Assembly: GCF_006345805.1 (NCBI RefSeq)
Contig: NW_021835005.1
Coordinates: 1-43,463 of the forward strand
DNA: 43,463 bases
Direction of reading: 5' to 3'
Source of the DNA: Octopus sinensis
Lineage: Eukaryota
This document shows positions 4,359 to 43,231 of the stretch, in pieces (positions within the stretch are counted from its first letter, which is position 1; each line of letters opens with the position of its first letter). The notes below the pieces were generated by a model. It made no database searches. It saw nothing but the letters and a program-made list of their open reading frames with translations, and had not been told where the DNA came from. A program made the position numbers and the translations under genes.

Positions 4359-5429
4359 GTTCTCTTGTGGTCAATTTCTTAGAAACTTATAGAATGAAAG
4401 AAATGCAAATGGTAACAAACATGGCGTTGAAGATATTTGGAAGAGTGATTGGTATCGATGGCAACAAAAAATTGAAACTGTCTCGCCACCTCAACTTAAA
4501 GGTCACTCCTTCATTCAGCGACACTCTGCAAAGAAGCGACGCAAATATTGAATTTTTGTAATATTCATTTCGATCTGTAACCTAGCGGAAGTAGGTTTAT
4601 GAAGAATTAGTAGAGAATTTTTGACAACTATTTAACACATTGATTATCGATAATTTAATATATTGTTTTCAACAATTTAACATTGTTTTCAACAATTCGG
4701 CATAGCGGGAATTTTCGACATTGTGCTATGCTTGTAAGAATAAAATGCTGCGCAATCTAATTACTATTGGAAACACCAGCTGTACTCAGCGCTATTTCTC
4801 GCTTGTTTTAAATAGTTTGTTATATAACATAAGTCATATCACCAATCGTAATTTACTTTCTGAATGTTATTGGGAATTGACACGACAGTATTTCGCAAAA
4901 AATTTTCCAACCAACAACAACCAAAGCGTTTTATAATGTTTCTATACTCAATTGAATTCATTGGATTACGGTTCTAATATTAGTGAGAACCAAAGTAGTA
5001 GAGACATCATGTCTTCAGCCATAGGGAAATCTACCTGTCTAGCAGTTTGGTCTTCTCTAAAGAAAATGACGACAAACCAGCGATATACAGCGTCCGGGTA
5101 TTGTAAAACAGCAGAAATGGCGCTAATTTGGAGGCTCCATCTTGGAGTTGTTGGGTATCAAATACTAAACTTCAATTCATTTTCTACTCCTTTCTTACAC
5201 TTCCTTTTCTTCAGAAAAAATTTTCTTATTGCACTCACATCCTCCCTCTCATCTCCCTCCTTTTCTCTTTTTTTTTAAAACTATTTTTTATCTCTCTTCG
5301 TTTCCTTGTATTATTATTCTTGCATTCTCATTCGTTTTCTTCTCTTCCTCCTATTCTTTTCTTCCTCCTTGTTTTTCTCTTCTTTTTCCTTCTCTCCCTT
5401 CTCCGCCTCTTCCGCCTTCCCTTCTTCTT

Positions 5430-5810
5430 GTTTTGATTTCTATCTACAGGAATATTTTCCCTGATGAGACGAATGGGTCCCTTAAGAGGTCCATAACGTC
5501 GAAATTGCAATAGGGAATTAGCCAATTATTTTCAAGTTATAGATACTAATTTCTATGTCAACCGAAAAGAGTTTTTATCGTGTGGAGAAATAATATGAGT
5601 GATATAACAGCTTTATTGCGGTTTTGGCTGCTATTTTTAAAATGTAAGGGTCTTTTTAACCCTCTTCGTTATAATTGTGACTTGTTCATAATCATAAACG
5701 TTTTTCTTCTTTGTATTTTATGATAACATGTTTTGCCACTTGGCATATTCATAAATAATCTTCATTATCTATAATATATCATCCGTAACGTTTATACATT
5801 ACTTTCCACT
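5430..5810 (+). mobile_element. HHR-bearing repeat, probable PLE pLTR
   Basis: About 290 bp homologous to 17375-17646, contains a hammerhead, and runs into (TA)n at about 5810. Confidence 0.7.
5456..5517 (+). ncRNA. Type I hammerhead ribozyme, canonical core
   Basis: Stem I tttcc/gggaa; CUGAUGA 5461-5467; stem II GACG/CGUC; GAAA 5501-5504; palindromic stem III AUUGCAAU; AUA triplet with predicted cleavage after 5512. Confidence 0.88.
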
Positions 5811-5901
5811 TATATATATATATATAATATATATATATATATAGATATATATACATATATATATATATATATGTATGGATATATGTGTATATATATATGT
5901 G

Positions 5902-9807: not shown

Positions 9808-10384
9808 TTCTTTTCTACTCTAGGCACAAGGCCCTAATTTTTTTTGGGGGGATGGGGTGAGAAGTCGATTAGATCGACCCCAGTATGCAACTGGTACTTA
9901 ATTTATCGACCCCAAAAGGTTAAAAGACAAAGTCGACCTCGGCGGAATTTGAGCTCAGAACAGACAAAACACCTATTTACTACCCACAAGGGGCTAAACA
10001 CAGAGAGGACAAACAAGGACAGACAAACGGATTAAGTCGATTATATGGACCCCAGTGCGTAACTGGTACTTATTTAATCGACCCCGAAAGGATGAAAGGC
10101 AAACTCGACCTCGGCGGAATTTGAAGTCAGAACTTAAAGACATACGAAATAGCTATTTCTTTATTACCCACAAGGGGCTAAACGCAGAGGGGACAAACAG
10201 GAACAGACATAGGTATTAAGTCGATTACATCGACCCCAGTGCGTAACTGGTACTTAATTTATCGACCCCGAAAGGATGAAAGGCAAACTCGACCTCGGCG
10301 GAATTTGAAGTCAGAACGTAAAGACAGACGAAATACCGCTTAGCATTTCACCCGGTGTGCTAACGTTTCTGCCAGCTCGCCGCT
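9808..10384 (-). mobile_element. SINE family B, three-module form
   Basis: One head (to about 10384) and three copies of the gtcgacctcggcggaatttga core. The terminal module carries the alternative tail (ttttctactctaggcacaaggcc on the plus strand). Confidence 0.9.
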
Positions 10385-16164: not shown

Positions 16165-16374
16165 CAGGAGAAAGAAGGGACTGAGAAAGATGAAAAGTCA
16201 GAAAGAAGGGGAGAGGAAGAGGAGTATATATATATATAATATATATATATATGCACACACACAACACACATATATATGTAAGTAGAGAGTAATATAGAAA
16301 CATTACGAAGGATATATTATAAATAATTAAGATTATTTATGAATATATCAATGGCCAAACATGTTATAAAATAT
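16165..16374. repeat. About 200-bp direct repeat of 16997-17195
   Basis: gactgagaaagatgaaaagtcagaaagaagggg...catgttataaaatat occurs at both places. Confidence 0.9.
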
Positions 16375-16437: not shown

Positions 16438-16845
16438 TCATATATAAATGATAAACTTCTGGAAATTTCTAAAGATTTTTACAGTTCCACTCATGAGTTG
16501 TAGTCTTCGAATCAGCTGTCCCCTTTCTGGTTTTGAGAAGCCTAATTTCTCAAGACTTTTATTTATGCTGTGTGTTACACATCCCAGTGCACCAATAATT
16601 ACAGATATAAACCTGAACTTGTAATCTGGATAAAGTAACTGCAGATTTATCAATAGTTCAGCGTAGGTATTCACTTCTTTACTCATCAGCTTTATGTTAA
16701 CATCCACTCGACAGCTGATTTCCAAAACTTTACACAGTTTCTCTTCTATATCCCTAATCACTATATCAGGTCTATTGTGTTTACATTTTACTGAGGTATT
16801 CAATTGGACATTCCACCAGTACTCCTTTTTATTATGAGTGGCACG
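16438..16845 (-). mobile_element. Non-LTR retrotransposon fragment, restriction-like endonuclease (Dong/R4-like)
   Basis: Translation YWWNVQLNTSVKCKHNRPDIVIRD...VLEISC...VIIGALG carries the RPD..D/E motif and the C-terminal IIGALG typical of RLE LINEs; 5'-truncated. Confidence 0.85.
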
Positions 16846-16967
16846 TATGCATGTATATGCGTATATATATATCTATATAGGGTAAATACAGTGATCAATA
16901 AAAAGACGTCCCAAATGGTCAAGGTATGACAAGTTCAGTATTAATGCTTTAATGGAAAAAGAAAGTT

Positions 16968-17005: not shown

Positions 17006-17194
17006 GAGAAAAGCATAGAGAGACTGAGAAAGATGAAAAGTCAGAAAGAAGGGGAGAGGAAGAGGAGTATATATATGCACACACACAACACACATATATA
17101 TCTAAGTAGAGAGTAATATAGAAACATTACGAAGGATATATTATAAATAAAGATTATTTATGAATATATCAATGGCCAAACATGTTATAAAATA

Positions 17195-17646
17195 TAAAGA
17201 AGTAAAACGTTTATAATTATGAACAAGCCAGAATTATAACTAAGAGGGTGGTCTCGAGATTTTCGCATAAATGCTGTGCATGGCATTTGAATTCAAAACT
17301 TGATTGTGTAGATAGAGGTTGAAACATTTCTATTGCCAGTCGGGATTCATGCTATCCCTCAAGGTAAAGTCTTCTTTTGATTTCTATCTATCGTATTATT
17401 CCTCCTGACGAGGCGAATGGGTCCCTTAAGTGGTCCCCAACGCCGAAATAGCAATAGGGAACTCACCAATTATTTTCAAATTGTGGATTCTAATTTCCAC
17501 GTTGCTCGAGGACAGTTTTTATCGTGAGGAGAATTGATATGAATAAATAATGGTTTTATAGTGTTTTTGGTTACATGTAAGGTTTTTTTTAACCCTCTTA
17601 GATATAATTGTGACTTGTTCTTAATTATAAACGTTTTTCTTCTTCA
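17195..17646 (+). mobile_element. HHR-bearing PLE-like relic with short inverted 5' arm
   Basis: 17195-17249 is the reverse complement of 17592-17646. The body is homologous to 5430-5720 and ends at (TA)n. Confidence 0.75.
17400..17461 (+). ncRNA. Type I hammerhead ribozyme, paralogue of 5456-5517
   Basis: CUGACGA 17405-17411; stem II GGCG/CGCC; GAAA 17445-17448; stem III AUAGCAAU (one mismatch from the palindrome); AUA triplet; gggaa. Confidence 0.8.
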
Positions 17647-17661
17647 TATGTGTATATGTAT

Positions 17662-17705
<44 letters not shown>

Positions 17706-18559
17706 TGGTAAAAACGGCAAGATAGCAAAAGAAAGAAAGAGACCTCAATATTACGTAAATAGAGGAAATTTATCTATAAAATAATATGTTACAATTACTC
17801 AATAGTCAAGATAAAACCGCTATATAAAGGGAAATTACTGTGTTATAATTCTGCTACTTATATAAAATAAGATTAAAAGTTCATAGTAAACACGTAAACA
17901 TGGCTAGTCATACGCTCACATATGCGCTCGCGGTCCCACGTGCGTACTTATACGTCACTATGAAAACGTACACATCTTCACTCGCATTTTTCGCCAAATA
18001 TATGCGCATATATATACAAACTCATACACACACACACACGCGTACCGTAAAAGTTCATACATACGTCTATATACGCATAAGCACAAGAAAAACCATGGTT
18101 AAAGGTAACAGAAAAAACATAAGGAAGTATACAAAGCATAAAAACCACGTTCATATACGGACATGCCCTCATATGCACTCATACACACACACACGCCCAT
18201 ATATGTACATATCTGCACATGTTTATATACGCATACACACACACGCATATACAAAAAATGAATATACATATGCTCCCCCCCAAAAAAAATCCCCATAAAA
18301 AATGGAAAAATACTAAGTAAAAACGTCTATATATATATATATATATGCATTCTTATGCCATCACACACGCACATCTAAAACTGTCCACTCATACATATTC
18401 ACACACGTGAATCTATATACACGTCTATATAGGCACAGAAAAAATGCAGGATAGAAGAGTATAAAAAAATTATTATGTGTGAAAATATAAAAATATATGA
18501 AATAATAAAAGGTATAATGAGATAAAAAACTTTTTGGGACGTAATATAGAAAGCAAGTT

Positions 18560-19429
18560 CTATCTGTTTTCTTTAGGGGACCAAAAACGTAACAAATATT
18601 TTGTCACATGTGGGCATGATCCGAAAAGTTCTGTCCTTGATTTTAGACATGTAGGAGGATCTAAGCTGCTTTTCCAGATAAGCCATCTCTCCATGTCGCA
18701 TAGACCGCACTTTCCGCTGCCGTTGGTGTAGGGCTTACATTTGGCCAAAATCTTCCATTTGGCCAAAATATTCGATACCTTTATCTTTTAAAGACCAAAT
18801 ATGATTAGATAATTTTGTCGCTTTTCTTTTGCTCCAGTGCCTAAAACTCAAGGTGTGGTTATTGAACCTGGCCTTGAAATTACCCTCTGTAAGGCCCACG
18901 TATTTCTTCGTCGAAACGGTGTCTTTAGTGGTTATAGAGTCCACGGTAGCTTCATAGATGATGGTCTTGGACATGCAAGCTCCATTTAGCGGGCACAATT
19001 TTTTATTCCTGCATGAACAGCTGTTTTCTTGTTGTGGTTTTTGTGTGTTATGTGTGATTATATTTTTAAAATTGGTAGTTGAACTAAAACTAATTTTTAA
19101 ATTGTGGTTATTGAAGAGTTTCCTATAAGTATGATTAACTGGAAAATGTCTATCTATCAGTGTTAAGAAATATTTACCTATATTGAAGGTCACCTCGGGT
19201 GAGTAAGGGGGTGTAAACCAGATGATCTTCCTATTTCTATTTTCCTCTTCTTTACTGTTGGGCTAGTAACAGGTGTATATTTTATTTTTTCGCTAAAACC
19301 ACTATCTTTTAAAGCCTTATTATAAACTGGGGCAACGCTATTAAAAATGTCCTTATCGGAGGAGAGGCTAGGAATTCTCTTACTAATATTTTTAACTAAA
19401 TGTTTGAATACTATAGGAGGGATGACCAT
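18560..19429 (-). pseudogene. Frameshifted PLE ORF: RT thumb, linker and GIY-YIG endonuclease
   Basis: Three ORF pieces join: IPPIVFKHL...ALKDSG; (IIWFTPPYS) NIGKYFLTLIDRHFP; CSCRNKKLC (CxCx5C); IIYEATV...KYVGLTEGNFKARFNNH (GIY-YIG); CGLC; CPH. Confidence 0.9.
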
Positions 19430-19722
19430 TGTACTAGACTAGTAGCGGTCTTAATTTTCGCATTTATTTTATCAAAATATGTGTGTATGAATTTGTATAT
19501 ATATGCGTATATATTTGGCGAAAAATGAGAGTGAAGATGTGTACGTTTTCATAGTGACGTATAAGTACGCACGTGGGTCCGCGTGCGCATATGTGAGCGT
19601 ATGACTAGCCATGTTTACGTATTTACTATGAACTTTTAATCTTATTTTACTTAAGTAGCAGAATTATAACACAGTAATTTCCCTTTATATAACGGTATTT
19701 TTTCATAGCGTTTTTCAGATGG

Positions 19723-35146: not shown

Positions 35147-35749
35147 ATACCTATTTCTTTATTACCCACAAGGGGCTAAACATAGAGGGGACAAACAAGG
35201 ACAGACATAGGTATTAAGTCGATTACATCGACCCCAGTGCGTAACTGGTACTTAATTTATCGACCCCGAAAGGATGAAAGGCAAAGTCGACCTCGGCGGA
35301 ATTTGAACTCACGACGTAATGGCAGACGAAATACCTATTTCTATATTACCCACAAGGGGCTAAACACAGAGGGGACAAACAAGGACAGACATAGGTATTA
35401 AGGCGATACATCGACCCCAGTGCGTAACTGGTACTTAATTTATCGACCCCGAAAGGATGAAAGGCAAAGTCGACCTCGGCGGAATTTGAACTCACAACGT
35501 AATGGGAGACGAAATACCTATTTCTATATTACCCACAAGGGGCTAAACACAGAGGGGACAAACAAGGACAGACATAGGTATTAAGTCGATTACATCGACC
35601 CCAGTGCGTAACTGGTACTTAATTTATCGACCCCGAAAGGATGAAAGGCAAAGTCGACCTCGGCGGAATTTGAACTCACAACGTAACGACAGACGAAATA
35701 CCGCTAAGCATTTCGCCCGGCGCGCTAACGTTTCTGCCAGCTCGCCGCC
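35147..35749 (-). mobile_element. SINE family B, three tandem 183-184 bp modules under one head, with TSD
   Basis: atacc junctions at 35147, 35331, 35514 and 35698; flanking gatgtttgcatcc(g/a)atac is duplicated. Confidence 0.93.
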
Positions 35750-39248: not shown

Positions 39249-39710
39249 GTTGCCTTATACAAAATACGTATACTGAGAAATACATTTATGTATCACACTT
39301 CAGAACATAGTGTCTGTGACTTTTAATAAAAAGCATATTCAAAATTCAACGTTCTATCAAGGTAAATACCATTTTGAAAATCTAATATGAACAAAAAATA
39401 AAGATTCGCTGGAATCAAACTCCATTTGAATCATTTCGTTCTAAATTGCTCATGACATTTAATATAATACAATATAATATGATATATTTCTATATGGATG
39501 TATATATACACTTACATGTGTACATGTATGTATGTATGTACGTATGTATTTATGTATCTATATATCTATCTTTCCATCTATCTATCAGTCTATATTCAAC
39601 TTACGGATTCAGAATTTGAATTGTGTAGATAGTCGTTGACACATTCTTGCCGGTCGGGACACATGTTAAGCCCCAATGTATATTTTTTTGTGCTAAAATC
39701 TATGTATATA

Positions 39711-40122: not shown

Positions 40123-40370
40123 GTGTATGAATGTTCTGAAGATCCATTTTTATTTCCAAACTTCGAAACTGCAAGTGAGGACTAACCTTTTATTTTTTTT
40201 ATTTAAGTTTTGAATTTTATATGTCATGTCGCCTGCCGAGGGTGTTTATGGTTGAGGAAAAAGGATATGAGCATTTATAGTGGCTTTATGGAAGTTTTGA
40301 CTGCTATTTCTAGGCAAATAAGCGTTTTAAACCCTCTCCGTTTTAACTGCGATTTATTTACATTATTGAC

Positions 40371-42798: not shown

Positions 42799-42874
42799 TA
42801 TAATATATATTTATATACATATTATTTACATTTGAAGGATATTTGTCCTCATCTTTGTTGTTAACATCGTTTCT

Positions 42875-43231
42875 GCTTGAGAGGCGGTTGGATGGAACCT
42901 ACACTCGCCTCCTTATGAGAGCTCAAAATCTCTCGTGGAGGCGCCATCCAACCAAACTGCAAATATATGGGAAACTACCACCTGTGTCATCTCTTGTGAA
43001 AGGTAGGAGAGTCCAGTTTGCTGGACATTGTTGTAGAGCTGAAAAAGAAGTAATTTCTACTCTTCTCCTCTGGAAGCCATCTACTCGCAACACCAGAGGG
43101 CGCACACTCTCCTACTCTGATGTAATCTCCAGGGATACAGGCATCCAGCAACAGGACCTCCGTAATGCCATGATGGACCGTGAAGTCTCGACTACGGTCT
43201 CGACTACGGTCGAACAATGATGACGATGATG
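42875..43231 (+). mobile_element. RTE-type LINE 3' end, 5'-truncated
   Basis: LDGTYTRLLMRAQNLSW...RRVQFAGHCCR...LLLW...RGR...DTG...AMMDRE is a typical RTE C-terminus, followed by a tgatgacgatgat tail. Confidence 0.82.

What the first reader, a model, noticed from the sequence alone, without database searches (positions are those of the whole stretch)
17400..17461. Paralogous hammerhead shows compensatory stem II change
Seen: relative to 5456-5517, stem II changes from GACG/CGUC to GGCG/CGCC (A-U to G-C), and the only core change is at the free position 7 (U to C), while flanks have diverged. Inference: the structure was under selection between subfamilies, which is within-window support for a functional ribozyme family.
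Basis: partly seen in the sequence, partly recalled or inferred. Interest (0 to 1): 0.75.

Follow-up and report, generated by a model that had tools for sequence, protein, structure and literature searches.

The report
Fossil hammerhead retrozyme with compensated stems
This is a worn copy of a 550-base non-coding repeat carrying a hammerhead ribozyme motif whose paired bases changed together at least four times between subfamilies, so the fold was likely selected while the element was jumping, but today's copies decay freely and the kind of element is already known.

Summary
Both hammerheads belong to a dispersed, ORF-less repeat of about 551 bp (123 copies analysed; probably an octopus genome). 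Its insertions look Penelope-like: 5' truncation, partial tandems, inverted upstream pieces, 3' ends in microsatellites. The change is a subfamily marker: 82 A-U, 31 G-C, 10 other. It is one inherited event, not independent decay. Across six subfamily consensuses the 11 core bases never change, and all six variable positions of stems I and II form three complete pairs (four compensatory events), while 59 of 321 flank columns vary. So the type I hammerhead fold was likely selected in the source elements. Individual copies are not constrained: 17 core mismatches against 19-21 expected. The position-7 U is CpG decay. The flanks are homologous (81%). Copy 17400 has a broken helix I pair and a broken helix III palindrome. 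It is a new member of a known kind (non-LTR retrozyme or non-autonomous Penelope-like element). This scan has noted similar octopus families on other DNA. Cleavage and expression are untested.

The parts
17400..17461 (+). Type I hammerhead motif, copy B (subfamily G1). Helix I 17400-17404/17457-17461 (damaged); core CUGACGA 17405-17411; helix II 17412-17415/17441-17444; helix II extension 17416-17440; GAAA 17445-17448; helix III and loop 17449-17454 (palindrome broken at 17450); U16.1 at 17455; A17 at 17456, predicted cut after 17456
   Evidence: sequence, alignment to family, folding
17413..17443 (+). The compensated pair 10.2-11.2 (G17413-C17443; A5469-U5499 in copy A), a marker of subfamily G1
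   Evidence: both alleles at both places seen in 4 of 4 public runs laid
17260..17650 (+). Forward arm of insertion B: 5'-truncated piece of the 551-bp unit, from 144 nt upstream of the core to about +250, running into a TA microsatellite (3' end approximate)
   Evidence: microsatellite 17653-17705
17103..17249 (-). Inverted arm of insertion B: 3' end of the unit (+198 to +351), 88% identical to the family consensus
5456..5517 (+). Type I hammerhead motif, copy A (subfamily G2): core and all helices formally pairable (one U.G in helix I), palindrome intact, N7 = U by CpG decay
5426..5819 (+). Insertion A: 5'-truncated unit from -35 to the preferred 3' end (about +355), followed by (TA)n
   Evidence: microsatellite from 5811

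Best explanation
The motif is a decayed genomic copy of a type I hammerhead carried by a roughly 551-bp non-coding, head-to-tail repeat unit, which likely cut its own RNA and was likely pasted into microsatellites by a Penelope-like reverse transcriptase and endonuclease supplied in trans. Shown: the unit, its lack of an ORF, its insertion anatomy, the subfamily ladder with compensated pairs and an unchanged core, and the unconstrained decay of copies. Inferred: a succession of source elements had to keep helices I and II, the core and the palindromic helix III in order to be copied, and the A-U to G-C change was fixed on one branch of that succession and then inherited by every G1 copy. Inferred further: transcription through a partial tandem gave RNA with two hammerheads, which cut (possibly as a dimer through the AUUGCAAU palindrome) to a unit-length RNA that was closed into a circle, and copying round that circle or along an uncut multimer gave the more-than-unit insertions. 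Circle versus uncut multimer is not decided here.
For: Family: 46 matches per DNA search as lower bounds; 124 matches to a 21-nt 3' motif against 0 for the reversed control; 132 anchored rows, 123 kept. Pair counts of 123: 10.2-11.2 = 82 A-U, 31 G-C, 10 other; 2.2-1.2 = 71 C-G, 36 U-A, 16 other; 10.3-11.3 = 67 C-G, 11 A-U, 7 G-C, 38 other (mostly CpG decay). Six group consensuses: core 0 of 11 variable (N7 is C or A), helix III and loop 0 of 6, helices I and II 6 of 18 variable and all in 3 full pairs (chance 0.0045 for that arrangement), flanks 59 of 321. The structural partner ranks 1, 1, 2 and 2 among 396 columns for linkage. One extension pair goes G-C to G.U to A-U along the ladder, and the 72-nt extension of G6 folds as a near-perfect hairpin, -26.6 kcal/mol. 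True register 84.6% paired, covariation score 0.266; slid registers 28-60% and 0.07-0.16. Anatomy in 82 copies: 43 end at +343 to +360, 44 have a microsatellite right after the 3' end, 35 run upstream into the unit's own 3' end, 30 exceed one period, 24 have an inverted upstream piece; longest stop-free frame 56 aa. One true tandem dimer, hammerheads about 549 bp apart (L092). This anatomy is the one described for Penelope-like elements (PMC8557442, passages). Neutral decay: in copies found by flank only, 17 core mismatches against 18.9-20.8 expected, 10 of 24 cores intact against 39-43% expected. 24 of those 30 copies run through the predicted cut site and none of the 6 truncated ones starts at it.
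Against: No cleavage or expression data. No autonomous partner found: the unit matched none of 29 other loci of the Penelope-like family that abuts L092, and a Penelope-like ORF piece lay within the fetched flank of only 5 of 123 rows, in mixed orientation. The groups were defined partly by the stem states, which is circular; flank-only clustering recovered only the coarse split, and the tree is poorly resolved (3 of 65 branches well supported; 5 changes by parsimony for G-C versus A-U, although one origin is not ruled out). At least four flank columns are almost as tightly linked to 10.2 as its partner (phi 0.78-0.87 against 0.88), so this one pair could be chance co-occurrence on one branch. 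The invariance of the 3' half is partly built in, since many G4-G6 copies were found by a 3' motif and rows were kept by anchors. In hammerhead-ascertained sets the core looked more conserved than flanks (4.9% against 7.7%, p = 0.012; similar), which I ascribe to ascertainment. Minimum-energy folds do not form helix III, and the Rfam scores are far below cut-off.
Confidence: 0.8

Rival explanations
1. The copies are 5'-truncated stubs of the pseudo-LTR of an autonomous Penelope-like element whose coding body I did not find; the hammerhead was selected in that element.
For: Most Penelope-like hammerheads in genomes are single stubs, some in close inverted pairs (PMC4209133, parts 1-2 read). The genome is rich in Penelope-like ORF remnants (168 matches).
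Against: Where copies extend upstream of the unit start they enter the unit's own 3' end (35 of 82 copies; also by eye in G4-G6), never a shared coding body. No frame over 56 aa. No match in 29 loci of the nearest Penelope-like family.
Confidence: 0.1
2. The stem II change and the other paired changes are chance co-occurrences in a master lineage with no selection on the fold.
For: Each pair is a single inherited event; several flank sites changed on the same branch as 10.2-11.2; groups were partly defined by the stems.
Against: All 6 variable positions of helices I and II fall in 3 complete Watson-Crick pairs (0.0045 before asking for complementarity), two events are transversion pairs, no uncompensated change is fixed in any group, and slid registers score far lower.
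Confidence: 0.05
3. The genomic copies, including this one, are kept by host selection as working ribozymes.
For: Core mismatches were lower than flank mismatches in hammerhead-ascertained sets; A/T core sites stayed slightly lower in the flank-ascertained set (5 of 166 against about 5%).
Against: Flank-ascertained copies show 17 core mismatches against 18.9-20.8 expected. Only 32 of 68 copies keep the core and 12 of 68 keep core and helices; copy B is not among the 12.
Confidence: 0.04
4. Both stem II changes are independent decay in these two copies.
For: Both are transitions, and A and B differ at 10 of 62 places.
Against: Neither site is in a CpG. Joint decay is expected in 0.1-0.5% of copies, yet 31 of 123 carry G-C and 82 carry A-U, each with its own linked flank alleles.
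Confidence: 0.01

Closest known systems
Metazoan non-LTR retrozymes (Cervera and de la Pena 2020, PMC7229834, passages seen; Li, Clavereau and Pollet 2026, bioRxiv 10.64898/2026.07.22.740005, parts 1-3 of 5 read)
   Same: Non-coding, low-GC, head-to-tail unit with one type I hammerhead; 2-bp helix III with a tetraloop; monomers, partial tandems and a dimer; proposed dependence on Penelope-like enzymes.
   Different: Unit of 551 bp, above the 170-400 nt of the 2020 paper but inside the 51-972 bp range of the 2026 preprint. Copies are mostly single or 1.x units, with no long arrays found. Helix II carries a 3x3 internal loop and a hairpin extension of 22 to 72 nt in place of a short loop 2. All subfamilies are old (median 7-9% from consensus). 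Expression, cleavage and circles are not shown here.
Hammerheads in pseudo-LTRs of Penelope-like elements (Cervera and de la Pena 2014, PMC4209133, parts 1-2 of 4 read; review PMC6765202, passages)
   Same: Type I topology, G10.1-C11.1, palindromic 15.2-16.2 and loop 3, short helix I, single and close inverted copies. [quoted passage not shown]
   Different: No unpaired base between 9 and 10.1; a 4-bp helix II with an extension rather than a 7-8 bp helix; no RT and GIY-YIG ORF found with the unit.
Insertion anatomy of endonuclease-bearing Penelope-like elements (Craig et al. 2021, PMC8557442, passages seen)
   Same: Partial tandem, inverted 5'-truncated copy upstream, bias for microsatellites such as (TA)n.
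   Different: No coding body; the mobilising clade (Neptune, Naiad or other) is not identified.

Membership tests
Type I hammerhead ribozyme | Conserved core CUGANGA, GAAA, UH in type I order | tested here: met
   Present in both window copies and in all six group consensuses
Type I hammerhead ribozyme | Helices I, II and III pairable around the core, with covariation | tested here: met
   Met for the family consensuses and for copy A; four compensatory events. Copy B has a C.A mismatch in helix I
Type I hammerhead ribozyme | Rfam hammerhead model above gathering score | tested here: not met
   14.6 bits to Hammerhead_3, E = 2.4; none of the 30 best RF00163 loci holds this unit. The long helix II extension probably costs score (inference)
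Type I hammerhead ribozyme | Loop 1 to loop 2 tertiary contact | not testable with these tools
   Helix II has an internal loop, not a terminal loop, 4 bp from the core; no 3D RNA tool was available
Type I hammerhead ribozyme | Site-specific self-cleavage | not testable with these tools
   Needs an assay
Non-LTR retrozyme | Non-coding unit of a few hundred bases with one type I hammerhead | tested here: met
   551-bp period, longest stop-free frame 56 aa
Non-LTR retrozyme | Head-to-tail tandem arrangement with at least two hammerheads | tested here: met
   Dimers in L092 and L242/L295; 30 of 82 copies exceed one period. No longer arrays seen; the window copies are sub-unit length
Non-LTR retrozyme | Expressed as linear and circular unit-length RNA | not testable with these tools
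   No RNA run was listed
Autonomous Penelope-like element | RT plus GIY-YIG ORF between the terminal repeats | tested here: not met
   No ORF in the unit; no consistent link to ORF remnants
Penelope-type insertion | 5' truncation, partial tandem, inverted upstream piece, microsatellite target | tested here: met
   35, 24 and 44 of 82 copies for upstream read-through, inverted piece and microsatellite; copy B has the inverted arm
Penelope-type insertion | 30-40 bp tail on one arm; spliceosomal intron near the hammerhead | tested here: inconclusive
   3' ends blur into TA repeats. An acceptor-like stretch ends just before helix I (seen), but there are no RNA data

The most novel reading that the evidence does not exclude
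The family is a fossil record of a circular self-cleaving RNA evolving step by step. Six subfamilies preserve a compensatory path through a G.U intermediate, a helix II arm that varies from 22 to 72 nt while staying a hairpin, and matching 3x3 A-rich internal loops in helices I and II (G3, G4, G6) that would dock on each other in place of the usual loop 1 to loop 2 contact, making this a distinct structural variant of the type I hammerhead.
Probability: 0.2. Interest if true: 0.55.

Novelty: new member of a known kind. Interest (0 to 1): 0.3.

Why it matters
It turns a weak two-copy hint into a sound case that the hammerhead fold was needed for this element's spread, and it shows where the selection acted: on source elements, not on inserted copies. 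That bears on the open question of whether hammerheads in Penelope-type elements matter for mobility or only ride along (raised in PMC8557442, passage). The subfamily ladder offers natural variants for cleavage assays. A specialist would not be surprised: compensatory changes among such families were reported in 2014, and the element type is described.

Tried and rejected
Rfam scan of the window gave only microsatellite-driven miRNA hits. Folding z-scores of the two motifs were not significant (-0.6 to -1.6). Unsupervised flank-only clustering separated only G4-G6 from G1-G3 cleanly. Search for an autonomous parent through the ORF remnant beside L092 and near all copies found none; the L092 junction may be a template switch or a nested insertion, and one locus cannot tell. 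Pfam gave nothing useful for the L092 and L091 remnants and a sub-cut-off GIY-YIG hit for the window remnant. Sequencing runs: no RNA holder listed; shares were all under 0.2 and only contigs could be laid. The U-A cells at pair 10.3-11.3 (6 of 123) were rejected as covariation, being double CpG decay. One-sided intermediates at 10.2-11.2 (3 A.C, 3 G.U) are no more than decay predicts (10.7 expected), so no amplified intermediate was seen. Rows dropped: one of a 99.7% identical local duplicate (69 to 68); 9 of 132 anchored rows (1 other family, 5 mis-anchored, 3 rearranged); 3 more with short loops in the slide test (120 rows); one search used 82 G1-G3 copies with enough flank. The Lunse et al. 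paper on dimer cleavage was not held and is known to me only through PMC6765202. Paper searches listed no paper on an octopus hammerhead family; PMC7229834 has no 'octopus' or 'cephalopod' in its main text. I did not open supplements, those of the bioRxiv preprint are closed, and Repbase and Dfam were not available, so the family may be catalogued there. I did not search the literature for the internal-loop motif.

Full report
Observation. Both motifs are present as described. They have the type I hammerhead order: helix I 5' strand, CUGAnGA, helix II, GAAA, a two-pair helix III with a tetraloop, UA, helix I 3' strand. The helix II difference is A5469/T5499 against G17413/C17443. The two 62-mers differ at 10 places. 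Three lie in helix I, one is N7, two are the compensated pair, three lie in the helix II extension and one in loop III. The flanks are homologous: the copies align over 5426-5711 and 17370-17644 at 78.7%, with 173 of 213 flank letters and 52 of 62 ribozyme letters alike (p = 0.71). On two copies alone the hint is weak: random placement hits both sides of some pair in 22% of draws.

The family. The window is a whole unplaced contig of a 2.72-Gb genome. I take it for an octopus genome from recall (microsatellite load, a 184-bp repeat resembling an octopus SINE); no call tested this. DNA and motif searches found a dispersed family (counts are lower bounds). I parsed 132 full hammerhead rows and kept 123. 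The unit has a period of about 551 bp and no stop-free frame over 56 aa. Of 82 G1-G3 copies with enough flank, 43 end at +343 to +360 from the core, 44 have a microsatellite right after the 3' end, 35 run upstream into the unit's own 3' end, 30 exceed one period and 24 have an inverted piece upstream. L092 is a tandem dimer. Copy B is a forward arm (17260 to about 17650) with an inverted arm (17103-17249); copy A spans 5426-5819. This matches the anatomy given for Penelope-like insertions (PMC8557442, passages). Related sequence was laid in 5 of 5 public runs tried, under five organism codes, and both alleles at 17413 and 17443 appear in all 4 runs; these are contigs and do not show linkage.

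The stem II change. At pair 10.2-11.2, 82 of 123 copies have A-U, 31 have G-C and 10 have something else. Independent decay would give the double change in 0.1-0.5% of copies, and neither base is in a CpG. The G-C state travels with its own flank alleles, so it marks a subfamily and counts as one event. Five of six groups have A-U and G1 sits at one end of the ladder, so A-U to G-C is the likely direction; the tree is weak and has no outgroup. One-sided states (3 A.C, 3 G.U) are within what decay predicts (10.7 expected). N7 is C in both G1 and G2; the U in copy A is CpG decay.

Selection on the fold. Grouping copies gave a ladder G1-G2-G3-G4-(G5, G6), with flank consensuses 1.9% to 17% apart. 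Among the six consensuses, 59 of 321 flank columns vary, none of the 11 core bases does, and helix III with its palindromic loop does not. Six of 18 positions in helices I and II vary, and they form three complete pairs: 10.2-11.2 (A-U, G-C), 10.3-11.3 (C-G, A-U, G-C) and 2.2-1.2 (C-G, U-A). The chance of that arrangement is 0.0045 before complementarity is asked for. Without using groups, the partner ranks 1, 1, 2 and 2 of 396 columns for linkage, and the true register beats six slid ones (84.6% paired and score 0.266 against 28-60% and 0.07-0.16; one slid register reached 3 two-sided pairs against 4). In the extension, one pair goes from G-C through G.U to A-U, and the 72-nt arm of G6 folds as a near-perfect hairpin. 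Caveats: groups were partly defined by stem states; flank-only clustering resolved only the coarse split; four flank sites are nearly as linked to 10.2 as its partner; and the 3' half was partly fixed by my search motif and anchors.

Copies are not constrained. In sets found through the hammerhead, the core looked better kept than flanks (4.9% against 7.7%, p = 0.012). In 30 loci found through the downstream flank only, 24 span the ribozyme; they have 17 core mismatches against 18.9-20.8 expected, and 10 intact cores against 39-43% expected. Only 12 of 68 copies keep core and helices; A is among them and B is not. All groups lie a median 7-9% from their consensus, so no young subfamily was found.

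Mechanism. Shown: a non-coding head-to-tail unit, Penelope-type insertion shapes, a compensated fold among subfamilies, neutral decay of copies. Inferred: the RNA cut itself after A17, perhaps as a dimer through the AUUGCAAU palindrome (intact in 85 of 123 copies; dimer cleavage is the model in PMC4209133 and PMC6765202), and was copied by a Penelope-like enzyme in trans. Copies read through the cut site and none of 6 truncated ones starts there, which fits a ligated circle or an uncut multimer. No autonomous partner was identified.

Comparison and verdict. It works like, and on the testable features is, a metazoan non-LTR retrozyme or non-autonomous Penelope-like element (PMC7229834, passages; bioRxiv 10.64898/2026.07.22.740005, parts 1-3 of 5). 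Compensatory changes among such families are already in print (PMC4209133). My five searches listed no paper on an octopus family, with supplements and repeat databases unseen. Earlier notes of this scan describe similar octopus families on other DNA; none matched this sequence. Interest 0.3: a clean, quantified case of a known kind.

Noticed in passing
window 18738-19262 (-), with an inverted repeat at 17813-18032 and 19480-19699: Broken Penelope-like remnant (end of RT, cysteine-rich linker, GIY-YIG; Pfam GIY-YIG E = 0.013, below cut-off) 1.1 kb downstream of copy B on the other strand, with a 220-bp inverted repeat at 95%. Assignment to the Neptune clade would be from recall.
   Followed up: partly
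window 39607-39680 and 40156-40358 (+); 16279-16374 (-): A third, interrupted and more diverged piece of the same repeat (flanks only, 72-81% to consensus) and an inverted 3'-end fragment.
   Followed up: partly
L092 3100-5490: The tandem dimer directly follows about 120 bp belonging to another Penelope-like family, whose ORF remnant lies inverted just upstream; possibly a template switch, possibly a nested insertion.
   Followed up: partly
L168-L197 (RF00163 hits): Other, unrelated type I hammerhead families in the genome: an abundant short one with a palindromic helix III, a 431-bp dimer (L173/L174), and relatives with long helix II extensions (L175, L184, L191).
   Followed up: no
L273 about 1786 (-); L120 and L134 (-): Two further hammerhead-like motifs of other families, one with a different 8-nt palindrome in helix III.
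   Followed up: no
window 17360-17393 and the same place in all subfamilies: A splice-acceptor-like stretch ends just before helix I, as reported for Drosophila virilis Penelope; the nearest donor-like site is only about 30 nt upstream, which seems too short for an intron.
   Followed up: no
window 9976-10335, 35147-35702 and single copies: 184-bp tandem repeat units, recalled as an octopus SINE.
   Followed up: no
window 16441-16872 (-) and 42804-43217 (+): ORF pieces that look like ends of non-LTR retrotransposon proteins (from recall, no Pfam hit for the first).
   Followed up: no
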